In this document: positions 1-16,508 of the stretch, in pieces
Position numbering within the stretch: position 1 is the first letter of the stretch
Layout of the letters: each line of letters opens with the position of its first letter
Assembly (NCBI GenBank): GCA_963715305.1
Contig: CAVQSB010000007.1
Span: 123,693-187,692 of the forward strand
Length of the DNA: 64,000 nt
Source of the DNA: an uncultured Actinomycetota bacterium
Lineage (GTDB): Bacteria > Actinomycetota > Acidimicrobiia > Spongiisociales > UBA4744
Reading direction: 5' to 3'
Made by a program: the position numbers and the translations under genes
Notes under the pieces: model-generated
What the model was told of the DNA's origin: nothing
What the model saw: the letters and a program-made list of their open reading frames with translations, nothing else
Database searches by the model: none

Positions 1-1720
1 AAAGAACGTACCCTCGTGCGGGGGAAGCAGTCCGACCGACTCGGCTCGCTCGTGGATGAGATCCAGATCGCTGTGATCGCCGGGTCCGTGGAGGCCCATG
101 TCGAACACGCCGAACGAAACCTGGCGCAAGGTGTTCAAGGCCACGTTGAGATGGCGCGCCCGCACGAGATCGTCTACCAGTTCCTTCGGAATGGACTCGC
201 CGGTTCGATAGTGCCGGGCGAATTGCTGCAACACCTCCGGCTGCCAGCACCATTCCTCCATGATCTGGCTGGGTGCCTCAACGAAGTCCCACTCGGTGTT
301 GGCACCGGAGAAGCGTGAGAACCGGGCTCGCGTGAGAGACATGTGGAGAATGTGCCCGAATTCGTGGAAAAGGGTTTCGACCTCGGTGTGCTGCAGCAGA
401 GCCGGCTTGTCCGCGGTTGGCTTGGTCAGGTTGGCCACGATGGCCGAAACCGGGCGGTGATACGTCCCATCCGGGTCCCTGGTGTCCCGGGTACAGCGGA
501 AAGGCGGCTGCGTGGCTGAACTTGCCCTCGCGGGGGAACAGGTCGGCATAGAAATACGCGAGATGCCGACCGCTGTCGGCATCGAGAATCTGATACAACA
601 GCACCTCTTCATGCCATGCTCGGGCTTCGACCACCGGTTGGTAGGTGAGACCAAAAACCTCAGCGGTGAGATCAAACATCCCGGCGATGACGTCTTCGAG
701 CATGAAATACTCGGCCACCTGATTGGGGTCTAACCCGAATTCCCTTTTTCGAATTTGCGTGTCGTAGTAGCGCCAGTCCCACGATTGGATTCTTTTCGAT
801 CCCGTGTCGCGGGCGAGCATGTCGGCCATCACTGCGATTTCGGCCATTCCTGCTTTGGAAAGCGGTGGGATCAATTCCGCATAGAACCGCTCAACGGCCT
901 CCGGGTACTTCGCCATCTTCTCTTCCATCTGATAGTGGGCCCAGGAGTCGAGCCCGAAGAGTTGAGCGATGCGCTCTCGTGCTTCGACCGCTTCTTCGAG
1001 AATCGGCCGGTTGGCGTCCACGGCACGACTGCTGAACTTGAAGGAAAGCGCCTCTCGAAGGTCGCGCCGTTCGGCCTGCTCCATGAACGGGACAACATGG
1101 GGGTAGGCCATGGTTACGCGCAAGGCGCCGTCGGTGCCCGGATCCAAACGCTCGAGGTAATCGTCGGGTAGGCCGGACAAGTCCTCTCGTTGGACCTCCA
1201 GGTAATCCTCGTACTCGGCAATGTTGCGTTGGAAGGCCACTTCGAGTTCAACGAGTCGCTCGCGCAGGAGCTGGACTTCGGCACGATCCTCCGGGGAGAG
1301 TTCATGCCCGGCCCGGCGGAAGTCTCGGAGCAGGAAGGCAACCAGACGTTCTGGTTCGCCTTCGAGTTGCTTCGCCTCGTCCGTCTCTGAGTATTCCTTG
1401 ACGGCGGCGAACAAGTCGGGTCGGAAGCTGAGCTCGACCTGCCATTTCTCGAGCCGCTCTTCGGCTGCGCGGGCCGCTTCCCGCACTTCTTCATCCGGGT
1501 GCACGTTGCCCAGGAAAGGCCCTTGTCCATATGCGTCCTGGAGGGCAACGGAGATATCCTCGAGAGGCTGGATCGTGTTCTTGAATGAGCGCGGCTCACC
1601 GGCGGCAATCAGGGAGCTGATGACTCGCTCGGCTTCGTTGATGGCATCGGCAACGATTTCGGTAGCGGTTGCGGCGGTGATCAGTGAGTAATCGACGAGC
1701 ATGAATGAAGAACCATACAC
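1..1720 (-). CDS. M3-family zinc metallopeptidase (oligopeptidase/Dcp-like); start codon at 1720, C-terminus runs off the window start; split by one frameshift near 465-480
   Basis: ORF 278..1720 has an M3-like N-terminal and middle region. The HEFGH zinc motif is encoded at 352-366 (revcomp ttccacgaattcgggcac) in a different frame. It is followed by M3 C-terminal sequence (EAPSQIMEEWCWQPEVL...) down to position 1. Confidence 0.8.
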
Positions 1721-2070
1721 CGGGCGGTCGCCCCGTCAGTAGTCGCCGGCATGGGGAACCCCGCCTCAAGTTGCTCCGATCCCGGACCGATTCCATTGCA
1801 GGTGTGGCTGTTGTCAATCCTCGGGATCGGCGCACTGGTTGGCTTGGCACGTGCGATGGTCTGGGGTGGACATCAGATCTGGCGCAGCACCGCCGCCGTT
1901 CGCCTCGAACGCCGGCTGAATCAGGTCGACGTGCTGGAGCTGGATCGCGCCTTTGCCCGAATCCAGCGCGATGTCCTTTTCGGGGACTGATTTCGCCTGG
2001 AGCCACAAGGTCGGTCCTGGGCCTCCTCGACTGCTCGGGCGGCGGGGTCCTTTGCACTAGGTTCCTCTGC

Positions 2071-2841: not shown

Positions 2842-2862
2842 TGTGTGAACCTTCGGGGCATC

Positions 2863-2915
2863 CTGTTCTGGCGTGAGAAAGCGGCGCATACTGCTCGAAA
2901 CTCACGCCAGAACGG
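2863..2915 (+). terminator. Long hairpin (13-bp perfect stem gttctggcgtgag / ctcacgccagaac, 23-nt loop) directly after the SDR stop; copy 1 of a repeated hairpin element
   Basis: Stem arms at 2865-2877 and 2901-2913 are exact reverse complements. The outer sequence is homologous to the hairpin at 3216-3274. Confidence 0.5.
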
Positions 2916-2933
2916 ACCGGGACCGGGACCGGG
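2914..2933. repeat. (GGACCG)3 hexamer tandem repeat
   Basis: ggaccgggaccgggaccggg is read directly from the sequence. Confidence 0.8.
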
Positions 2934-2985
2934 CGTCGGTTGGGCAGGCTATTCTCCTGGATCTGGCTCTGGAGAGGTGCAGCCC

Positions 2986-3216
2986 GATGAAGATCCGGCT
3001 CGAGTACTGCGCGGCTTGAAACTACACAGATCGTGCGGTCCGCATGACTGAACAATTATTGGAAGAATTCGAAGATACGATCACTGAGTTCACGTTGATC
3101 CCATCCCGCGGCGGGGTGTTCGAGGTTGATGTCGACGGGGACCGGATCTACAGCAAGAAGGCAACCGGTCGTCATGCCGAGTACGAAGACATCGCCGGCC
3201 CGATTCGCCGGCGATA
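2986..3216 (+). CDS. SelW/Rdx-family selenoprotein (76 aa) with in-frame UGA (selenocysteine) at 3016-3018; CxxU motif C-A-A-U
   Basis: SD GGAGAGG at 2970-2976. Translation is MKIRLEYCAAU NYTDRAVRMTEQLLEEFEDTITEFTLIPSRGGVFEVDVDGDRIYSKKATGRHAEYEDIAGPIRRR*. This matches the Rdx/SelW pattern (IEYCxxC/UxW ... LIPxxGGxFEVxVDGxxIxSKxxxGRFPE). The ORF track misses it because of the TGA. Confidence 0.6.
3030..3046 (+). promoter_or_regulatory. SECIS-like stem-loop 12 nt downstream of the UGA (UCGUGCG-GUC-CGCAUGA, one G.U pair), apical GGUC-like loop
   Basis: A 7-bp hairpin was found by inspection. Its spacing and loop resemble the bacterial fdhF-type SECIS apical stem. Confidence 0.35.
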
Positions 3217-3274
3217 ATCCTGTTCTTGTGTGAGAAACCTGCGGATACCGCAGGAAAATCACGCAAGAACAGGA
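3216..3274. terminator. Long hairpin (17-bp stem with one G.U, inner palindrome cctgcgg-ata-ccgcagg) filling the whole space between convergent stops (selW-like 3216, amidohydrolase 3275); copy 2 of the hairpin element
   Basis: Arms 3216-3233 and 3257-3274. The outer arms are homologous to copy 1 (tcctgttctKgYgtgagaaa ... aaaMtcacgcMagaacagg). Confidence 0.5.
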
Positions 3275-4856
3275 TTAACCCTTCCAGGTGACCGGATTGT
3301 CCGGGACGGGCACCGGCTGGCCGTCGATCCAGGTCGCCAGAACCCGGGTGTCCCGGAGTTCGTCCGGGGTGGCTTCGACCGGGTCCCGGTCCAAAACGAC
3401 GAAATCGGCGGCGCTACCGGCGGCCAGTGGTTCCGGTTCGCCCATGGCCCGGGCGGCACCGTCGGTGAAGAGGGCGAATGCACCCGTCCCGGTCAGGGCT
3501 TGTTCCGGAACCATCCCACCCCGGTCGCGGGCGGCCGCCATCCCCCACAAGGGATGGGGAGCCTCGACCGGACAATCTGAGCCTCCGGCCAACGGCACCC
3601 CGGCAGCCTGCAGCGAGGCCAGCGGGTAGGCGTTGCCGAGACGTTCCGGTCCGAGTCGCTTCTCCAGCCAAGCGGCCTCCGAGGCCATGAACGCCGGCTG
3701 TACTGAAGCTGTGACGCCGGAGGCGGCGAACCGGTCGATCAACCCGGCGTCGAGGATGGAGGCATGTTCGACCCGCAGATCGGCCGGGTCGGCACCTTCC
3801 GCCAGAAGCTCATCGAACAGATCGAGCACCCTGGCATTGGCCACGTCGCCGATGGCATGGATCGCGACCTTGCCGCCGAGTCGGAGGGCCGTCCTGGCGC
3901 GGGCACCGACTCGCGGTGCGGTCGAAACGCAGCGTGCCGTACTGGTCGGGCTGATCCGCGTAGGGGTACTGCAGGGCGGCCGTATGACCGCCCAGGCTCC
4001 CGTCGGCGAATTCCTTGACTCCGAGGAATTGCAGGCGGGGACCCGCGGCACGGATGTCGGCAGCTGCCTGTTCGAGCTCGGCCGGGTCTCCTGCAATGAC
4101 CAGCACCGGCATCTTGAGCGGGAGACGGTCGGCGATGGCCAACATGGCGCGGAGTTCGTTGCCGGTGTCACACCAGGGTCCCGTCCCGACCGCCAGGATG
4201 GCTCCAAGCGAAGTGACTCCCAGGCCGACCAGTCCGTGCATGGCTGCCAGGATCGCCTCCGGATCAGGATCGCTCGCCGGCCCGCTCAAAGCGGTAGCCA
4301 CTCGCTCGATGGCCGTCTCACGGAGGATTCCGTTGGGAACTCCGAATTCGTCTCGATCTAGGGTGCCACCGATCGGGTCAGTGGCCACCGAGCCGACACC
4401 GGCGTTGGCCAACGCCATGGTGTTGGCTACGGCGATATGGCCGCAGTACCGGTACACCAGGACGGGGCGGTCATCGACGGCCAGGTCGAGCTCCCGACGG
4501 GTCGGCAACCGTCGCTCCTGAAGTCCTTCATCATTCAACCGGATGGCGATGAGCGGGACTCCGGCTGGAAGCAGCGCGGCCGCCTCGCGAATTCGGGTGA
4601 GCACCTCCTCCAAATCGGCTGCCTCTTTCAACGTAGGTCGGGTGAGCGACAAGGCATAGGGAACGGGATGCATGTGGGCGTCGCGCAAACCCGGCGTGAT
4701 GACACTGCCTGGGAAGTCGTCCTCGGGGATTTCCGGCCTGCGCAAATCAGCGGCCTGCCCCACGGCGACTACCCGACCGTCGCTGATCAGGAGAGCGTCA
4801 CCGGGGAGATTCGATCCGATGCGGATCCGGTCGGCGACAACCAGTCGTTGTGTCAT
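3275..4856 (-). CDS. Amidohydrolase-family 3 metal-dependent hydrolase; frameshift near 3900-3950 splits it into ORFs 3810..4856 and 3275..4207
   Basis: N-terminal part has ...VITPGLRDAHMHP... The C-terminal part has GGKVAIHAIGD ... GSDCPVE, typical of amidohydrolase_3. The two ORFs overlap in different frames. Confidence 0.8.
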
Positions 4857-5449
4857 CGTGGCGATCCGAACTGCCCGTAGTGGACCAGGTCGGCCATCGG
4901 CTTGCGTCCCTGCGGGAGGGTTGCGCGGATGCCCTTGCGAATCTGACGCTCACCTTCCAGGTCCGGGTACCCGAACGCAACTGCATACCGACAACCGTGG
5001 TCGTCGGGGACGCCGAGTCGTTCACGGGCGCACGGCTCGCGGTGCAACGTGACCGGGCACGATCCGATTCCGAGGGCCGCGGCGGCCTCCATCATGTTCT
5101 GGGCGGCCCGGCCCATGTCGAAATCTCCACCAGCGGGCAACCGGACGATGACCACCGCAAGCGGCGCGCCCAACAGCGGAGTGGTGAAGCTCCCGCACTC
5201 GGCCAGCTGCTGGCGGCCCTCGGGTTCGGTGATCACCACAAAGGCCCATGGTTGGGTGTTCTTCGAGCTCCCGGTCCATCGACCGGCTTCCAGGATCATG
5301 TCGATGTGTGCGTCGTCTATCAGGTCCGGTCGGTACATGCGAACGACCCGGAGTCCGGCGATGCGCCGGTAGGTTTCGAGGGACGGTTCGAAGGACTGCA
5401 TCAGCACCTCTGCGGTTGTCTCAGCCGGGAGCTTACCGGCGAGCCGCAA
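4853..5449 (-). CDS. Nitroreductase-family protein
   Basis: 198 aa. Nitroreductase fold motifs are present (…RRSxR-like N-terminus, GIGSC, conserved C-terminus). It overlaps the downstream amidohydrolase start by 4 nt, so they form an operon. Confidence 0.75.
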   Translation of the reverse strand: MRLAGKLPAETTAEVLMQSFEPSLETYRRIAGLRVVRMYRPDLIDDAHIDMILEAGRWTGSSKNTQPWAFVVITEPEGRQQLAECGSFTTPLLGAPLAVVIVRLPAGGDFDMGRAAQNMMEAAAALGIGSCPVTLHREPCARERLGVPDDHGCRYAVAFGYPDLEGERQIRKGIRATLPQGRKPMADLVHYGQFGSPR

Positions 5450-8216: not shown

Positions 8217-10013
8217 GTGTCGCTGACGCTGCTGCTCGTCCTGGGATCGGCGTTTGTTCTCCTGGCGCCCGGTGCGGAGGCCAAACAGAAGTTCATGTCG
8301 GGTTTCGCGCAGGCCTATCCCGCGGCTGCCGGCACTCCGCTCGACTCCTGCCTTCTCTGTCACACCAACCCGGTCAATCCCGGGGAAAACAACCTCAACA
8401 ACTACGGCAAGGACTGGGAAGACGGCGATTTCGGCGACAAGAACTACCTGGAGCCGGCGCTGGTCAATCGTGATTCCGATCGCGATGGAATACCGAACGG
8501 CCAGGAGATTCAGCAACTATCGCTCCCCGGTGATCCGTCGAGCATCGCACCGCCCACCACGACCACCACGGTGCCCGGTGCGCCTCCCAACGGGCAGGCT
8601 CTCTACGCCGCCCGGTGTTCTGTTTGTCATGGTCCCGGCGGCGGTGACCTGAGCGGAACGACCCGGGCGCGGTCGACCTTCATCACCATCACCCTCAACG
8701 GGCAGGGAGGGATGCCTCCGCAGTCGGGCCTTTCAACCGGAGAGGCTGGTGCCATCTGGGACTACGTGACCGGCACGGTCCCCGCCACGACGACGACTAC
8801 CCGGCCGGGAGCGACAACGGCGCCTGCCGGTGGCGCCACCGTGTGGGCACAACAGTGTGCTGCTTGCCACGGGGCCAACGGTGGGGATGTGGTTCCGACC
8901 AGCCGCAGCAATGCACAACTCGTTTCGATCGTCACCAACGGCGTTCCCGGGATGCGGGGCTTTCCCGAATTGGGAACCGCCCAGATCAGCAATGTGGCCG
9001 GCTACCTTCTCAGCCTGAGCGTCCCGCCGACCACCCAGCCCGGTGCCACGACCACAACAACTTCCCCACGGAGCGGTGCCGCCGTCTATGCAGCCAGTTG
9101 TGCTCTGTGCCACGGAGCGGACGGCGGCAATCTACGCGGCCACACGCTGAACCTGTCCCGGATCGTCTCGGCAACAAGCAACGGCGTTGGGACGATGAGC
9201 GGATACGCGAGCCGCCTCAGCGCCGCCGAGATCAATAATGTTGCTGTCTACGTCGCTTCGGTCGGCGCGAGCGCCGGTGTAACGACCACTACCGCGCCAC
9301 CGGGCAGTCCCCTCTCAGGGTCGATGCTGTATCAGCAGAATTGCTCCGCTTGTCACGGTCTCCACGGTGAAGGCGGCCCGGGGGGAGCGGTCGCCGGTAC
9401 GGCCCTGAGCCGTTCCCAAACGATTGGCGTCATCACCGGAGGAGCGAGCGGTATGCCCGGCTACGCCTCGCAACTATCTGCTGGGCAGATCGCCGCCGTG
9501 GCCGATCACGTCCTGGGAATCGCCGGCAGAGACATCGCGGCCGCCGACAGCGCTCCCGATAGAAGCGTGATACCAACGGAGCTCGTCGAAGGACATGCGC
9601 TGTTTGGTCGGTTCTGTGCGGCCTGTCACGGGGTCAACGGTGAAGGCGGATTGGGCGGTCCGGTTGCAGGTATCAACATCGCCGCCGACGAACTTGGCGA
9701 GATCATTCGAGCCGGGGTGGGCTCGATGCCCGGTTTTGCAGATCGGATGAGTGCTGCCGAGGTCGAAGCCCTGGTGGCGTATTCGCAAGCACTCGCCTCC
9801 GGACGGGAATTCGAGGTGGCCGACACCACCACGACGAGCGGGCAGGCGCCCACCCCACGAGACTCTGGTCCACAAGCCCTGGGGGTTTCCGAGCCCGACC
9901 CGTCGACCAGCCATTCAGCCTGGCCGGTCGTTGTGATTTCCCTGGTAGCCGGGCTCATCGCAACCGGCGCTGCTGTGCTCTGGGCGCGTTTGGGCCGCGA
10001 TCTCATCAACTGA
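8217..10013 (+). CDS. Six-heme c-type cytochrome: signal peptide, N-terminal CxxCH + DxDxDG Ca-binding-like segment, five tandem class-I cytochrome c domains separated by Thr/Pro linkers, C-terminal TM anchor
   Basis: GTG start. CxxCH motifs are CLLCH, CSVCH, CAACH, CALCH, CSACH and CAACH. Each repeat has a downstream GMP(G) Met-ligand region. Linkers are TTTTT/PP-rich. The C-terminus is hydrophobic (WPVVVISLVAGLIATGAAVLW). Confidence 0.8.
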   Translation: MSLTLLLVLGSAFVLLAPGAEAKQKFMSGFAQAYPAAAGTPLDSCLLCHTNPVNPGENNLNNYGKDWEDGDFGDKNYLEPALVNRDSDRDGIPNGQEIQQLSLPGDPSSIAPPTTTTTVPGAPPNGQALYAARCSVCHGPGGGDLSGTTRARSTFITITLNGQGGMPPQSGLSTGEAGAIWDYVTGTVPATTTTTRPGATTAPAGGATVWAQQCAACHGANGGDVVPTSRSNAQLVSIVTNGVPGMRGFPELGTAQISNVAGYLLSLSVPPTTQPGATTTTTSPRSGAAVYAASCALCHGADGGNLRGHTLNLSRIVSATSNGVGTMSGYASRLSAAEINNVAVYVASVGASAGVTTTTAPPGSPLSGSMLYQQNCSACHGLHGEGGPGGAVAGTALSRSQTIGVITGGASGMPGYASQLSAGQIAAVADHVLGIAGRDIAAADSAPDRSVIPTELVEGHALFGRFCAACHGVNGEGGLGGPVAGINIAADELGEIIRAGVGSMPGFADRMSAAEVEALVAYSQALASGREFEVADTTTTSGQAPTPRDSGPQALGVSEPDPSTSHSAWPVVVISLVAGLIATGAAVLWARLGRDLIN

Positions 10014-10065
10014 TCGGCGCACCTCCCGGCCGGGTCAACCTATCAACGCCTCGAGGTGTTGGGGA

Positions 10066-10750
10066 CTACTCCGTCTCGCACTCGGTGAGCGCCGCATCCA
10101 TAATGTCGATAGCCCGACCCAGTTCCTCCATCGTCGTGATCAAGGGGGGAATGAACCGGATCTCGTTGTCATCGGGTCCGCAGCCGATCACGAAAATTTC
10201 GGTTTCGAATGAGTACCGGGCTACGAAGCGTATCGCCTCTGCGTCCAGCTCGCGCGACTCGCGATCCTTGACCAGTTCGATCCCGATCATCAGACCAAGT
10301 CCCCGAACCTCACCATCGGTGCTGTGCGCGACCTGCATTTTGTTGAGCCGCTCAAAGGCGTGCGCCGACAGTAGCGAGCGTGAGGAAGGAGTCCCCCCAT
10401 GGTGTCGATGACGGCACCAACAGCGGCACAGGAGACCGGGTTGCCCCCGAAGGTATTCCGTGGGAGCCGACCAGCCATCGGTCCATGACCTCGGCGGACC
10501 CGCCGAGGATATTCGCTGTGAAGTTCAGAACTGCCGGCTCACTGTCCTTGACTGCGGCGGTGAGGTCATACCCGTGGAGATGCACTGAATCGGGGGGGGG
10601 GGGGGGGGGGGAATCGGATCGGACGCGGACTTCGATGGTGTCGCCTTGTGATACTTCCGCTCGTCGGACACCGCCCTCGACTGCACCACCCCGGACTCGA
10701 TAGCGACGTCGGTTCTGGTGTGATGCCTGTGCGGCAACCTCGACCGACAC
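10066..10750 (-). pseudogene. Remnant of a class-III (PLP) aminotransferase C-terminal ~230 aa, at least two frameshifts, N-terminal ~200 aa missing; contains poly-G tract
   Basis: Fragments in three frames: ...ILGGSAEVMD, ...TFGGNPVSCAAVGAVIDTMGG and ...FERLNKMQVAHSTDGEVRGLGLMIGIEL. Frame changes sit at C6 (10393-10398) and C5 (10444-10448) runs. Sequence 10612-10795 has no aminotransferase similarity. Confidence 0.6.
10592..10611. repeat. 20-nt poly-G homopolymer flanked by direct repeat gaatcgg
   Basis: The sequence is ctgaatc-G20-aatcggatcgg. On the minus strand it would encode PPPPPP. Confidence 0.9.
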
Positions 10751-10795: not shown

Positions 10796-11812
10796 CTAGA
10801 CGAAACGAACACCATGATCCCGATCTGCCGTGACTTCTCCAATGACCCAGCTGCGGTGCCCATGGTTGGTGAATACGGCCTGAACGTCTGCGGCTCGCGC
10901 GGAAATCGCAATCACCGCGAAACCGATCCCCATGTTGAAGGTGCGAAACATCTCTTCTTCGGAAACCGAACCGAGGTCCTGGAGGTAACGGAAGATGGGA
11001 GGGACCGTCCAGGCCGTCCGGTCGACGATCGCGCCGCACCCGGCCGGCAAGATGCGGGGCAGATTTCCGGGGAGGGCTCCGCCGGTGATGTGGGCGAGTC
11101 CACGTACCGCTCCGGTTGCCACTGCGTCCAGGACGGCGGGGGCGTAGATCACGGACGGTTCGAGGAGAACCTCACCCACCGGGTTGCTACCACTGCACGG
11201 GCTTTCCAGGTCGACATCTTTGAGCACAGCCCGAACCAGCGAGAAACCGTTCGATCGCAGGTTGGGACTCTCGACTCCGATGATGGAATCGTTCGCTCCG
11301 ATCGATGTGCCCGTGATCTCCTCGCCTTCTTCGACGATCCCCAGGGCGGCACCGGCCAGGTCGAAGGCATCGGTCGCCATGACCCCAGGGTGAACGGCGG
11401 TCTCTCCCCCCAGCAGCGCGCAACCTGCCATTGAGCAACCCGCCGCCACCGACTCGATGAGGGTTTGATCCCGATCTGGCTGCAATGCTCCGACCGCGAG
11501 ATAGTCGACGAACGCGAGCGGGCGAGCCCCAACGGCCGCGAGGTCGTCGACGCACATCGCGACGAGATCGAATCCGAGGCCTGAGAAGCGATTGGTCGCG
11601 CGGGCCAGCTCGATCTTGGTCCCGACCCCGTCCGTGCTCATCATGAGCACCGGGTTCCGGTAACCGGCAGGAATCCGAATCCCGGCGGCGAACCCACCGA
11701 AACTGCCGACAACCTGGTCGCTCCAAGTCTGCTGCACGGCGGGGCCGATCCGCGCTACCAACTCGTCGGCTGCATCGAGATCGACGCCGGCTTCCCGATA
11801 GGTGGCCATCAC
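10796..11812 (-). CDS. purM: Phosphoribosylformylglycinamidine cyclo-ligase (AIR synthetase)
   Basis: 338 aa. PurM motifs are present (AGVDID-like N-terminus, GVGTK). Confidence 0.9.
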   Translation of the reverse strand: MMATYREAGVDLDAADELVARIGPAVQQTWSDQVVGSFGGFAAGIRIPAGYRNPVLMMSTDGVGTKIELARATNRFSGLGFDLVAMCVDDLAAVGARPLAFVDYLAVGALQPDRDQTLIESVAAGCSMAGCALLGGETAVHPGVMATDAFDLAGAALGIVEEGEEITGTSIGANDSIIGVESPNLRSNGFSLVRAVLKDVDLESPCSGSNPVGEVLLEPSVIYAPAVLDAVATGAVRGLAHITGGALPGNLPRILPAGCGAIVDRTAWTVPPIFRYLQDLGSVSEEEMFRTFNMGIGFAVIAISARAADVQAVFTNHGHRSWVIGEVTADRDHGVRFV

Positions 11813-13639: not shown

Positions 13640-15816
13640 TCACCCCATGCGGCGGGGGAGGGCGGTTCGCCACACGGAAGTCGCCTCTTTCAGGCTGACG
13701 AACGCTTCGCCCAACCGGATCTGATCTCCACCGAAGGTCCCAATGCGATGGATGGGCACTCCCGCTTTCATTGCCAAAGCCGCCACGGAGTCGGCGTGTT
13801 CCGGATCAACCGCAGCAATGAGTCGGTGGGGATCTTCAGCGAACCAGTTACCGGTCCATTCGGTGGTGACCCCGACACCGGACATCATGGCTACCTTGGC
13901 GACGGCCATTCCCAGGCCGCCTGTGGAGAGGTCGTGCAAGACAGGGGTCATGTCGGTGGTGGCCAGTTGGGTGGCCAGGCTCGTGAGGCGAATGGCCATG
14001 ACCGGGTCGGGCTCTGACGGACGGCCGCCGATCGTTTCCTCCACCACCTTCTGAAAGACGGTCCCGGCCACGTCGGTGGAGGTGGTGGGTCCGAGCAGCC
14101 ACAAGTCCATGCCGGAAGCTGCCCGGTCCAGACGCGGCGGATGTTCCGGGTACGGATCGGCCAGGCCGATCAGCCCGACGATCGGCGTTGGATAGATATC
14201 GACCCCATCCGTCTCGTTGTAGAAGGAGACGTTGCCGCCAACGACCGGTATCGCGAGGTGCTCACAAGCCTCCGAGATACCGTCGATCGTTTCGGAGAAC
14301 TGCCACATGACCTCGGGTTTCTCCGGATTCCCGAAGTTGAGGTTGTCGACGACGGCCATAGGCCGAGCCCCGGTCACAGCTACGTTGAGTGCAGCCTCGT
14401 AGACGAGGCGGGCACCGCCGCGCCGTGGATCCAGGTAGCAGCGACGACCATTACCGTCTGTCGTCCCGGCCAGCGCCTTCGTCGTTCCCTTGATACGCAG
14501 CAACGTGCCGTCGTGTCCCGGACCGATCACGGTGTTGAGGAACAACATGTGGTCGTACTGCTCGTAGACCCAGGCCGGGTCGGCCAGCGACGGGTCATCC
14601 AGAAGTGTCAACAATCCGGCTGCCACATCCGGTTGATCAACCGGCCGATTTCGCGCCCACACTTCATCGAGCCAATCCGGCCGCCGGAGAGGTCGGTGGT
14701 AGACCGGGGCATCCTCCGACAGCGACGCGGCCGGGACTTCTGCGACCAGCTCACCTCGTTCGAAGACCCGGAGCAGGCCGCCGGAGGAGACCGTCCCGAC
14801 GCGCTGACGCGTCGATTTCCCATTTGGCGGCGACGGCCAGGACTTCGTCGACGTCGGCGGGCGCAACGAACGCCATCATGCGTTCCTGCGATTCGGACAT
14901 CAGGAGTTCGGCCGGCGTCATGCCCGGCTCTCGCACATGAACTCGTCCCAGATCGACCTCCATGCCCATTCCCGATTTGGCGGCCGGTTCGGAGGTGGCG
15001 CAGGACAAGCCCGGCTGCTCCCAGGTCCTGAATGCCAACGACCAGGCCCCGCTCGTACAGTTCGAGGCACGCCTCGATCAGCTTCTTCTCCTCGAAGGGG
15101 TCGCCCACCTGGACGGACGGGCGTTTGGCCGTGCCGGCATCGTCGAAGCTCGCTGAGGCGAGGACGGAGGCGCCGCCGATACCGTCCCGTCCGGTGGCGG
15201 AACCAAGGAGAACAGCCTCGGTGCCTGCACCTCCCGATTCGGCAAGTACGAGTTGCTCGCGCCGGAGGATGCCGAGGGCCATCACGTTGACCAGCGGGTT
15301 GCCTGCGTAGCAATCCTCGAAGGCGATTTCACCGCCGACGGTCGGCACCCCTACCGCGTTTCCATATCCGGCGATTCCCGCGACGACGCCGGCCAGCAGG
15401 TAGCGGTTGTGAGCATCGTTGAGCGACCCGAAACGGATCTGATCCCATACGGCGATGGGCCTGGCTCCCATCGTGAACACATCGCGAAGAATGCCCCCCA
15501 CACCGGTGGCCGCACCCTGGTGAGGTTCGACGAACGACGGGTGATTGTGGGACTCGATCCGGAAGGCGGCCAGCCAGCCGTCGCCGAGATCGATGACACC
15601 GGCATTCTCGCCGGGACCGACCACCACCCACGGTGCCTCGGTGGGGAACCGCCCCAGGTGGGGACGGGAGGATTTGTACGAGCAATGCTCGGACCACATG
15701 ACCGAATACATGGCCAACTCGGCGTCCCGGGGAGGGCGGTCGAGGATGTCGCACACCGCCGCGTACTCGCCGTCGGTCATCCCGAGCGCCCGGTGGAGGG
15801 GTGTTTGGTCAGACAT
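13640..15816 (-). CDS. purL: Phosphoribosylformylglycinamidine synthase II (PurL); split by at least 2 frameshifts (~14795-14870 and ~14995-15040)
   Basis: ORFs 14608..15816, 14751..15038 and 13640..14866 together give a full-length PurL (…SEHCSYKSS…, …GLSCATSE…KWEID…, …VAEVPA…). Confidence 0.85.
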
Positions 15817-16508
15817 ACGCGGCGGTCATGCTCATGGCAAACGATTCCATCAGCACACGGCCGTCGGCCGACCCGAGCACCTGCTCGATGGCCCGCTCCG
15901 GATGCGGCATCAGACCGGCGACGTTGCCTGCGTCATTCGTGATGCCGGCTGTGTTGCCGAGCGATCCGTTCGGGTTGGCCTCGTCGGAGACCTCGCCCTG
16001 CCGGATCCGAATAGCGCAGCACGATTCGGCCGGAGCGGTCCATGCGGGCGAAGGTCGAAGGGTCGGTCGTATAGCTTCCCTCGTACGAATTGAGCGGCAG
16101 TTCGAGGACCTGTCCGATCCGGGCCGCCCGCGTCAAGATGGAGTCGGTCGAGGTGACCCGGAGATGAACCGGCCGGCAGATGAATCGGAGCCCGGCATTC
16201 TGCAGCAGAACTCCCGGTAGGAGACCGGCTTCGCAGAGGATTTGAAATCCGTTGCAGATACCGAGGACGGGGACACCCTTCGCGGCCAGACGTTCTACCT
16301 CTTTCATGACGGGTGAGAATCGGGCGATGGCACCGGTCCGGAGGTAGTCGCCGTGGGCGAAACCGCCCGGGAGAACGATCCCCGCGAAGGCACTCAGGTC
16401 GGTTTCGCGGTGCCAGACCAACTCGGCGTCAATGCCGACGGATGCCAGGGCATAGACGCTGTCGTGTTCGCAGTTGGTCCCCGGGAATACGACCACGGCC
16501 GCCTTCAC
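15809..16508 (-). CDS. purQ: Phosphoribosylformylglycinamidine synthase I, glutaminase subunit (PurQ); frameshift near 15990-16040
   Basis: GICNGFQ catalytic Cys. The C-terminal ...[30 protein letters not shown]... is in another frame. Its stop overlaps the purL ATG (ATGTCTGA). Confidence 0.85.

What the first reader, a model, noticed from the sequence alone, without database searches (positions are those of the whole stretch)
2986..3216. Unannotated SelW/Rdx-type selenoprotein gene with in-frame UGA and SECIS-like hairpin
None of the supplied ORFs covers this gene because TGA at 3016-3018 is read as stop. Translating from ATG 2986 (SD GGAGAGG at 2970-2976) through that TGA to TAA 3214-3216 gives a 76-aa protein. 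The sequence is MKIRLEYCAAU-NYTDRAVRMTEQLLEEFEDTITEFTLIPSRGGVFEVDVDGDRIYSKKATGRHAEYEDIAGPIRRR. It has the Rdx/SelW signature: an N-terminal beta-strand ending in a CxxU redox motif, then a conserved LIP-x-GG-FEV-VDG core. Twelve nt after the UGA there is a 7-bp hairpin (3030-3046) with a GGUC-type apical loop, similar to the E. coli fdhF SECIS. Indel errors dominate this assembly, not substitutions, so TGA is less likely to be an artefact of TGC/TGT. This indicates the organism uses selenocysteine. The gene would be absent from standard annotation.
Basis: partly seen in the sequence, partly recalled or inferred. Interest (0 to 1): 0.8.

Follow-up and report, generated by a model that had tools for sequence, protein, structure and literature searches.

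The report
SelW-like selenoprotein gene with SECIS hairpin

Summary
With U read as C, the 76-aa product matches Pfam Rdx (74 bits, E 8.5e-21) and NCBIfam TIGR02174 CXXU_selWTH above their cut-offs. An 88%-identical orthologue models as the SelW-type thioredoxin-like fold (TM 0.9 to bacterial SelW-related crystal structures). The TGA is not an error: 34 of 34 genomic and 38 of 39 metagenomic orthologues carry TGA at the same codon, mostly in Acidimicrobiia with some Planctomycetota. The ten codons upstream are conserved as protein and vary synonymously. TGA is also the commonest true stop in this window, so a local recoding signal is needed. The hairpin lies 11 nt after UGA, at positions 15-31. 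It is 99.6% paired across 37 distinct sequences, shows compensatory changes, has frozen Arg codons, and has an invariant GU flanked by a covarying N-N' pair, like the E. coli fdhF SECIS. No selA, selB, selC or selD lies in these 64 kb, so the machinery is untested for this genome. Gemmatales orthologues sit next to a Sec-containing selD. SelW-like is a long-known, abundant bacterial selenoprotein family. This is a new member of a known kind, of low to moderate interest.

The parts
2971..2977 (+). Shine-Dalgarno-like GGAGAGG, 9 nt upstream of the start codon
   Evidence: Read from the sequence. A purine-rich GGAGG/GGAAGG/GAAAGG block sits at the same distance in L001-L007. Its function is inferred.
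2987..3217 (+). SelW-like / Rdx-family selenoprotein gene: 76 codons plus TAA, with Sec at codon 11
   Evidence: Translation. Pfam PF10262 74.4 bits, E 8.5e-21, covering profile positions 1-73 of 74. NCBIfam TIGR02174 61.1 bits against a cut-off of 34.2. ATG or GTG start at the same position in orthologues. SelW-type fold modelled for the 88%-identical orthologue P0001, pLDDT 94.
3008..3019 (+). Redox motif Cys8-Ala-Ala-Sec11 (TGC GCG GCT TGA), at the junction of strand beta1 and helix alpha1
   Evidence: TGC is invariant and TGA nearly invariant in alignments A1 and A4. The motif aligns to the CxxC of 2fa8, 3dex and 2oka. In the model, beta1 spans residues 2-8 and alpha1 spans 14-31.
3017..3019 (+). 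In-frame UGA, read as selenocysteine
   Evidence: TGA at this codon in 34 of 34 genome loci and 38 of 39 metagenome loci. TGA is the ordinary stop of 18 of 28 Pfam-supported genes in the window, so there is no global reassignment.
3027..3050 (+). SECIS-like hairpin: lower stem 3027-3029 with 3048-3050, bulged A at 3030, upper stem-loop 3031-3047 (positions 15-31 counted from the U of UGA), invariant apical G3038 U3039 flanked by G3037 and C3040
   Evidence: MFE fold. 80% of cells paired against 38% or less for slid controls, across 30 distinct sequences. 99.6% paired, with U-A/C-G covariation at the stem base and C-G/G-C/A-U covariation at the pair flanking GU, across 37 distinct sequences. 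Arg16 is CGT and Arg19 is CGC in 26 of 26 sequences, while other conserved residues vary freely at third positions. No Rfam SECIS model matched.
3215..3277 (.). Very stable palindrome overlapping the stop codon, between the convergent selW-like and amidohydrolase genes; probable terminator or transcript-stabilising hairpin (inferred)
   Evidence: -43.9 kcal/mol, z -11.2. A hairpin with compensatory arm changes sits at the same place in L001, L003, L004, L006 and L007. It has no U tract, so the terminator scan did not call it.

Best explanation
Window 2987-3217 (+) is a functional, monocistronic gene for a 76-residue SelW-like (Rdx family) selenoprotein.

Proposed mechanism: the ribosome starts at ATG 2987 and reaches UGA at codon 11. 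A SelB-type elongation factor carrying Sec-tRNA(Sec) is tethered by the mRNA hairpin that begins 11 nt downstream (3031-3047). The factor recognises the exposed GU at the tip of the hairpin, and selenocysteine is inserted instead of termination.

The product is a minimal thioredoxin-like protein (beta1-alpha1-beta2-beta3-beta4-alpha2). Its Cys8-x-x-Sec11 pair, at the start of helix 1, cycles between the selenol/thiol and selenenylsulfide states. It therefore most likely acts as a small thiol-dependent oxidoreductase or antioxidant.

Shown here: family membership, the fold (on a close orthologue), conservation of the UGA, selection on the coding sequence upstream of it, and conservation and covariation of the hairpin.

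Inferred: SelB binding, actual Sec insertion, the redox cycle, and the physiological substrate, which is unknown for any bacterial member.
For: - Family: PF10262 at 74.4 bits, with 27 bits contributed by the 19 residues around and upstream of the UGA. TIGR02174 CXXU_selWTH is above its cut-off. Sequence hits to six solved bacterial SelW-related proteins and to mouse SelW, with the U aligned to the second Cys of CxxC.
- Fold: the AlphaFold model of orthologue P0001 (pLDDT 94) superposes on 2fa8, 2obk and 2ojl at TM about 0.9 and rmsd 1.1 A.
- UGA conservation: TGA at codon 11 in 34/34 and 38/39 orthologous loci from different assemblers and phyla.
- Coding upstream of the UGA: codons 1-10 are conserved as protein with synonymous variation; for example Ala9 uses GCG, GCC, GCA and GCT.
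- No alternative start: Met20, the start of the truncated database ORFs, is present in only 18 of 26 distinct Acidimicrobiia-type sequences.
- No reassignment: TGA terminates 18 of 28 genes in the window.
- Hairpin: 99.6% paired. The base pair is U-A in 10 and C-G in 26 sequences. The pair flanking the GU is C-G in 23, G-C in 12 and A-U in 2. Synonymous sites in the stem are frozen.
- Geometry: it matches the published E. coli fdhF SECIS, namely an 11-nt spacer, a 17-nt element at positions 15-31 and an apical GU (PMC8659212).
- Sec decoding in orthologue-bearing genomes: in Gemmatales the gene lies about 200-350 bp upstream of a selD that itself has an in-frame UGA at the active-site position, CAG*AGK.
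- Sec machinery in the class: selA, selB, selC and selD are reported in another Acidimicrobiia order (bioRxiv 10.64898/2026.04.03.716425).
Against: - No tRNA-Sec, selA, selB or selD lies in the 64-kb window or in the flanks of the Acidimicrobiia orthologues. The decoding machinery is therefore unverified for this genome.
- No Rfam SECIS model matches, even at E <= 10.
- The stability of the window hairpin alone is not exceptional.
- It lacks the bulged U17 of the E. coli element, and its GU lies at positions 22-23 rather than 23-24.
- Near-identical relatives exist with GGA (Gly) or AGA (Arg) in place of TGA, so the Sec residue is not indispensable in every population.
- The covariation counts are inflated by shared ancestry.
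Confidence: 0.9

Rival explanations
1. UGA 3017-3019 is an ordinary stop. The real product would be the 57-aa protein starting at ATG 3044, as almost all databases annotate the homologues, and the upstream 10 codons would be non-coding leader.
For: 110 of the 120 best database homologues are 53-62-aa proteins starting at this internal Met. The 57-aa piece alone still passes the Pfam cut-off at 47 bits. TGA is the commonest stop in the window.
Against: The truncated form lacks strand beta1 and the CxxU redox centre, that is, the defining part of the fold. The upstream codons, start codon and SD are conserved as coding sequence across phyla. Met20 is replaced by Thr or Leu in many orthologues, which would leave no start. 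The truncations follow from gene callers treating TGA as a stop.
Confidence: 0.03
2. The gene is a pseudogene or an assembly or sequencing error: a TGC/TGT Cys codon (or another sense codon) corrupted to TGA in an error-prone long-read assembly.
For: The assembly carries frameshift-type errors in several neighbouring genes. Relatives with GGA or AGA at this codon exist.
Against: The same TGA is present in 72 of 73 independently assembled orthologous loci, including many short-read contigs. The rest of the ORF is intact and under purifying selection. The errors seen elsewhere in the window are indels, not substitutions.
Confidence: 0.02
3. The UGA is recoded, but not to selenocysteine. The hairpin-dependent system, or near-cognate read-through, would insert Cys, Trp or Gly. 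One example would be a SelB-like factor with a Cys-charged tRNA(UCA), as proposed for some bacteria; this rests on my own knowledge, not on anything checked here.
For: Sec machinery was not found in the window. Natural Gly and Arg variants show that the position tolerates other residues.
Against: The family is a documented Sec family with few Cys forms (PMC1794560, PMC2398784). Gemmatales orthologues are adjacent to a Sec-type selD. The hairpin has the SelB-type GU loop. A simple TGC codon would be the cheaper way to encode Cys.
Confidence: 0.04

Closest known systems
Bacterial SelW-like selenoproteins (Pfam PF10262 Rdx; NCBIfam TIGR02174 CXXU_selWTH)
   Same: About 75-80 aa long, with an N-terminal CxxU motif after beta1. 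Has the LIPS-GG-FEV core and a thioredoxin-like fold. Sec forms far outnumber Cys forms, and a SECIS hairpin lies directly after the UGA (PMC1794560; PMC2398784, where SelW-like has a CxxU motif, with 427 Sec against 56 Cys sequences in GOS).
   Different: This clade has YSKKATGRHAEYE where canonical bacterial Cys forms have W-x-R-K-x-x-GGFPE and eukaryotic SelW has SK-x-x-GGFP. The host lineage is mainly Acidimicrobiia MAGs, for which selenoproteins are hardly documented: only one 2026 preprint was found.
Campylobacter-type SelT/SelW/SelH (seleno)protein, NCBIfam NF041051
   Same: This is the best-scoring NCBIfam model, at 80.2 bits over nearly the full length.
   Different: The score is below the equivalog cut-off of 88, so the gene is not a member of that specific equivalog.
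E. coli fdhF SECIS element
   Same: Lies immediately downstream of the UGA, with an 11-nt spacer and a 17-nt upper stem-loop at positions 15-31. An invariant GU sits at the tip, flanked by a complementary pair, comparable to G22-C25 around G23 U24 (PMC8659212 for positions 15-31, U17, G23 and U24; the G22-C25 closing pair is from my own recollection of the NMR structure).
   Different: The GU is at positions 22-23, not 23-24. There is no bulged U17; instead there is one unpaired nucleotide 3' of the N-GU-N' unit and a bulged A at position 14. No Rfam SECIS family matches. In Planctomycetota and some other orthologues the hairpin is shifted by 4 nt, with the GU at positions 26-27.
Mammalian selenoprotein W (PDB 2npb) and other Rdx proteins (SelT, SelH, MIEN1)
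   Same: Same fold and the same CxxU or CxxC position (TM 0.74 to 2npb).
   Different: Eukaryotic members use a 3'-UTR SECIS and SBP2/eEFSec. Here the signal lies inside the coding sequence, within the codons for D-R-A-V-R-M.

Membership tests
Rdx / SelW-like family (PF10262, TIGR02174) | Profile HMM score above the curated cut-off over the full domain | tested here: met
   PF10262 74.4 bits against 22.6, covering profile positions 1-73 of 74. TIGR02174 61.1 bits against 34.2.
Rdx / SelW-like family (PF10262, TIGR02174) | CxxC or CxxU redox motif between beta1 and alpha1 | tested here: met
   C8-A-A-U11. It aligns with the CxxC of 2fa8, 3dex and 2oka. It lies between E2-8 and H14-31 in the model.
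Rdx / SelW-like family (PF10262, TIGR02174) | Thioredoxin-like beta1-alpha1-beta2-beta3-beta4-alpha2 fold | tested here: met
pLDDT 94. TM 0.90-0.92 and rmsd 1.1 A to 2fa8, 2obk, 2ojl and 2p0g.
NF041051 SelTWH_Campy equivalog | Score at or above the equivalog cut-off (88 bits) | tested here: not met
   80.2 bits.
Bacterial selenoprotein gene | In-frame UGA aligned with Cys of homologues and conserved among orthologues | tested here: met
   34 of 34 and 38 of 39 loci have TGA. Cys forms P0095 and P0110 and the PDB homologues have Cys at that column.
Bacterial selenoprotein gene | Stem-loop (bSECIS) directly 3' of the UGA with G/U in the apical loop, conserved as a structure | tested here: met
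   No curated Rfam SECIS model matches, but those models are lineage-specific.
Bacterial selenoprotein gene | selA, selB, selC (tRNA-Sec) and selD present in the same genome | not testable with these tools
   None found in the 64-kb window. The AIRS protein at 10796-11812 is PurM, not SelD. The rest of the genome is not available. A Sec-type selD lies next to the orthologue in seven Gemmatales loci.
Bacterial selenoprotein gene | Selenium actually incorporated at the UGA position | not testable with these tools
   Needs 75Se labelling or mass spectrometry.
E. coli fdhF-type SECIS | Upper stem-loop of 17 nt at positions 15-31, 11 nt after the UGA | tested here: met
   Window 3031-3047 corresponds to positions 15-31. 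The definition is taken from PMC8659212.
E. coli fdhF-type SECIS | G23 and U24 in the apical loop | tested here: inconclusive
   The invariant GU is at positions 22-23, one nucleotide closer to the UGA.
E. coli fdhF-type SECIS | Bulged U17 in the upper stem | tested here: not met
   Position 17 is a G paired with U. The only bulges are the A at position 14 and one nucleotide 3' of the loop.

The most novel reading that the evidence does not exclude
The Acidimicrobiia/Planctomycetota sequences form a distinct, essentially obligate-Sec SelW subfamily marked by the YSKKATGRHAEYE motif. Its E. coli-like N-GU-N' SECIS is written into the codons of the conserved D-R-A-V-R-M helix start, so that RNA and protein constraints are locked together. 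Wild populations are polymorphic for UGA against GGA or AGA at the catalytic codon while keeping the hairpin. That would mean Sec is being lost to non-redox residues, or that the protein has a second role that does not need the CxxU centre. It would also mark soil and freshwater Acidimicrobiia as an overlooked group of selenium users whose main selenoprotein is truncated in nearly every database.
Probability: 0.2. Interest if true: 0.4.

Novelty: new member of a known kind. Interest (0 to 1): 0.22.

Why it matters
On the practical side, the gene should be annotated as a 76-aa selenoprotein with a translation exception at codon 11, not as a 57-aa fragment or nothing. Its presence predicts that this uncultured actinobacterium has the full selenocysteine pathway and needs selenium.

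More broadly, about nine in ten database homologues of this clade are mis-called truncations, and a few were read through with a Trp-reading genetic code. This illustrates how systematically small selenoproteins are lost from metagenome annotation.

The conserved, covarying hairpin adds a clean comparative example of a bacterial SECIS outside the model organisms. None of this changes what is known about selenoproteins.

Tried and rejected
- **Rfam:** the whole window at gathering thresholds gave no hits. Region 2900-3300 at E <= 10 gave only chance matches (mir-35, COG3860 RNA, sR38) and no SECIS family.
- **Hairpin stability alone:** the MFE of the 48 nt after the UGA was compared with 300 synonymous recodings per sequence. 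The window gave only z -0.5, and the mean over 30 sequences was -1.3. Stability was therefore dropped as an argument in favour of covariation and codon-usage evidence.
- **Sec machinery:** searched by ARAGORN on the window and on 34 loci, by Pfam scans of about 40 window ORFs, by NCBIfam on the AIRS protein, which is PurM, and by tblastn of E. coli SelA, SelB and SelD against the window plus all fetched loci. Nothing was found in the window. selD was found only next to the Gemmatales orthologues.
- **Other selenoprotein genes in the window:** a custom scan looked for in-frame TGA followed by a GU-loop hairpin. It gave six other candidates. All are explainable as antisense frames, ordinary stops followed by an in-frame neighbour, or frameshifted fragments.
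- **Source contig:** an exact look-up of the 57-aa product found no record.
- **G at the Sec position of P0001:** I first assumed it was an alternative-code translation. The DNA shows a real GGA codon, whereas the W variants are TGA.
- **Cys-form control for absence of the hairpin:** only two distant sequences were available, which is too weak to use.

Full report
**1. Observation**

The finding's coordinates are all one base too low.
- The sequence shows GGAGAGG at 2971-2977, ATG at 2987-2989, TGA at 3017-3019 and TAA at 3215-3217.
The stated 2986-3216 is out of frame.
- The mechanical ORF list holds the two halves as 2873-3019 and 3044-3217.
- Folding 3017-3070 gives the described hairpin. 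The upper stem-loop is 3031-3047 (UCGUGCG GUC CGCAUGA), with a 3-bp lower stem at 3027-3029 and 3048-3050 and a bulged A at 3030. The energy is -11.4 kcal/mol, z -1.8.

**2. Protein family**

- With U replaced by C, the 76-aa product hits Pfam Rdx (PF10262) at 74.4 bits, E 8.5e-21, over profile positions 1-73 of 74.
- The 57-aa piece after the TGA scores only 47.0 bits, so the residues around and upstream of the TGA belong to the domain.
- NCBIfam TIGR02174 (CXXU_selWTH, SelT/SelW/SelH family) is passed at 61.1 bits against a cut-off of 34.2. The Campylobacter equivalog NF041051 is missed at 80.2 against 88.
- A sequence search of the PDB finds six bacterial SelW-related structures (2fa8, 3dex, 2oka, 2obk, 2ojl, 2p0g), mouse SelW (2npb) and MIEN1. 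The U column aligns to the second Cys of their CxxC.
- The window protein itself could not be submitted for modelling. The 88%-identical orthologue P0001 models with pLDDT 94 as E2-8, H14-31, E34-40, E45-49, E52-56, H66-75. It superposes on the bacterial SelW-related crystal structures at TM 0.90-0.92 and rmsd 1.1 A, and on mouse SelW at TM 0.74.

**3. Is the TGA real and read through?**

A scan of one genome per species returned 34 orthologous loci. Most are Acidimicrobiia or Actinomycetota MAGs. Some are Gemmatales, Pirellulales or other Planctomycetota, and a few carry other bin labels.
- All 34 have TGA at codon 11. All have an ATG or GTG start ten codons upstream and a conserved (M/V)K-x-x-(L/I)EYC-x-x-U N-terminus.
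- A metagenome scan added 39 usable loci, 38 with TGA and one with GGA.
- Many of these are short-read assemblies (k141 contigs), so the TGA cannot be a long-read artefact.
- In the 26 distinct Acidimicrobiia-type sequences, the codons before the TGA vary synonymously while the amino acids are kept: Ala9 uses GCG, GCC, GCA and GCT, and Glu6 uses GAG and GAA. This is the signature of translated sequence.
- Met20, where the truncated database ORFs start, is present in only 18 of those 26 and is absent from the Planctomycetota sequences.
- TGA ends 18 of 28 Pfam-supported genes in the window. The code is therefore standard, and read-through at codon 11 needs a local signal.

**4. The hairpin**

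Alignments around the UGA are gap-free (A1; A4).
The covariation score is 0.304 against 0.125 or less, and five pairs show changes on both sides.
- On A4 (37 distinct sequences, with the GU at positions 22-23), the six-pair upper stem plus one extra pair is 99.6% paired. The base pair is C-G in 26 and U-A in 10. G-U switches to G-C in 4. The two nucleotides flanking the invariant GU are always complementary: C-G in 23, G-C in 12 and A-U in 2.
- The G-C and A-U states occur on different stem backgrounds (L049, L052 and L054 against the window clade), so they reflect several events, although shared ancestry inflates all the counts.
- Independent of pairing, Arg16 is CGT and Arg19 is CGC in 26 of 26 sequences. 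Equally conserved Pro39, Ser40, Gly42 and Gly43 use three to five codons each. This is RNA-level constraint on synonymous sites.
- Counted from the U of UGA, the element occupies positions 15-31 after an 11-nt spacer, the same as the published E. coli fdhF SECIS (PMC8659212).
- It differs from that element in having its GU at 22-23 instead of 23-24, and in lacking the bulged U17.
- In L021, L022 and the Planctomycetota orthologues the hairpin is rebuilt 4 nt further downstream, with the GU at 26-27.
- Weak points: the window hairpin is not unusually stable compared with synonymous recodings (z -0.5). No Rfam SECIS family matches.

**5. Sec machinery**

- The window has no tRNA at all.
- Pfam scans of about 40 of its ORFs show neither SelA nor SelB. 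The only AIRS/AIRS_C (SelD-like) match is the protein at 10796-11812, which is PurM (TIGR00878, 360 bits).
- tblastn with E. coli SelA, SelB and SelD (taken from NC_000913) against the window and all fetched loci finds nothing in the window or in the Acidimicrobiia flanks.
- It does find selD about 200-350 bp downstream of the orthologue in seven Gemmatales loci. That selD has its own in-frame TGA at the active-site position, CAG*AGK, so those genomes clearly decode Sec.
- For the class Acidimicrobiia, a 2026 preprint reports selA, selB, selC and selD in all 84 complete Actinomarina genomes (bioRxiv 10.64898/2026.04.03.716425).
- For this genome the machinery remains an inference from the selection seen on the UGA and hairpin.

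**6. Context**

The gene stands alone between a short-chain dehydrogenase (2071-2841, +) and a convergent Amidohydro_3 gene (3275-4949, -). An M3 peptidase lies upstream, and nitroreductase, inositol monophosphatase, Lnt and a purMFLQS cluster lie downstream. The same order is seen in three short-read contigs of a close relative. There is no conserved redox partner in an operon. The orthologues share a purine-rich SD and a conserved block about 35-45 nt upstream, TAGGCT in relatives and CAGGCTATTCT here. This may be a -10 region, but that is an inference; the sigma-70 scan found nothing.

**7. What the databases hold**

- Of the 120 best protein homologues, 110 are 53-62 aa long and cover only residues 20-76. 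JGI names many of them "selenoprotein W-related protein".
- The few full-length entries carry W, G, R, S or C at the Sec column.
- Checking the DNA showed that the W entries tested (P0050 and P0059) are TGA read with a Trp-reading code, G (P0001) is a genuine GGA, R (P0025) is a genuine AGA, and C (P0095 and P0110) is TGC.

**8. Comparison with what is known, and verdict**

Bacterial SelW-like CxxU selenoproteins have been described since the mid-2000s. Ten were found in the 2006 genome survey, which noted that they have few or no Cys homologues (PMC1794560). [quoted passage not shown]

The gene passes the membership tests for that family and for a bacterial selenoprotein gene, as far as these can be run here. 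But this is a new member of a known kind. What is mildly new:
- the host lineage, since selenoproteins in Acidimicrobiia are almost undocumented;
- the subfamily motif YSKKATGRHAEYE;
- the clean N-GU-N' covariation;
- the UGA/GGA/AGA polymorphism.

Interest is about 0.2.

Noticed in passing
window 2861-2916 and 3215-3277; also L001 (both sides), L003, L004, L006 and L007 (downstream), L005 (tandem copies): Two long, near-perfect palindromes with shared arm sequence (CCTGTTCTnGnGTGAGAAA ... TCACGCnAGAACnGG) bracket the selW-like gene. Their energies are -33.6 and -43.9 kcal/mol (z -5.4 and -11.2). These are the only two full copies in 64 kb. They look like a lineage-specific REP-like or terminator-like element without a U tract.
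   Followed up: partly
L037-L039 (gene at 10001-10231, 8531-8761 and 2362-2592), L043, compared with L002 and L044; L042: Near-identical relatives are polymorphic at the Sec codon. TGA is found in L002 and L044, GGA (Gly) in L037-L039 and L043, and a more distant sequence has AGA (Arg). The downstream hairpin is intact in all of them. K57E and E64A changes in the conserved YSKKATGRHAEYE motif assort independently of the TGA/GGA state.
   Followed up: partly
L029 3421-4419, L030, L031, L074-L077: In Gemmatales the selW-like selenoprotein gene is followed within about 200-350 bp by selD, which is itself a selenoprotein with an in-frame TGA in CAG*AGK. This makes a two-gene selenoprotein cluster.
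   Followed up: partly
window 278-1735 (-), 3275-4949 (-), 13640-15825 (-): The M3 peptidase, Amidohydro_3 and purL genes are each split over two overlapping frames. Syntenic short-read relatives have intact genes of 650 aa, 526-539 aa and at least 724 aa. This is consistent with indel errors in this assembly.
   Followed up: partly
window 8217-10013 (+) and 10066-10524 (-): A 598-aa protein with five cbb3-type cytochrome c domains (CxxCH) joined by Thr-rich linkers sits between lnt and purM. Close relatives have an intact class-III aminotransferase between these two genes and no called gene matching a cytochrome c family. The window keeps only a C-terminal fragment of that aminotransferase.
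   Followed up: no
database proteins P0002-P0120; L040, L041: 110 of the 120 best homologues in the protein collection are 53-62-aa truncations starting after the UGA. At least two 'full-length' entries (P0050 and P0059) were produced by translating TGA as Trp; P0059 was also read through its true TGA stop.
   Followed up: yes
bioRxiv 10.64898/2026.04.03.716425 (Actinomarina): The preprint's most abundant predicted selenoprotein family in Actinomarina is an 'uncharacterized' 78-aa protein with no UniRef90 hit. Its size and lineage make it a candidate for the same SelW-like family. The text gives no sequences, so this could not be checked.
   Followed up: no
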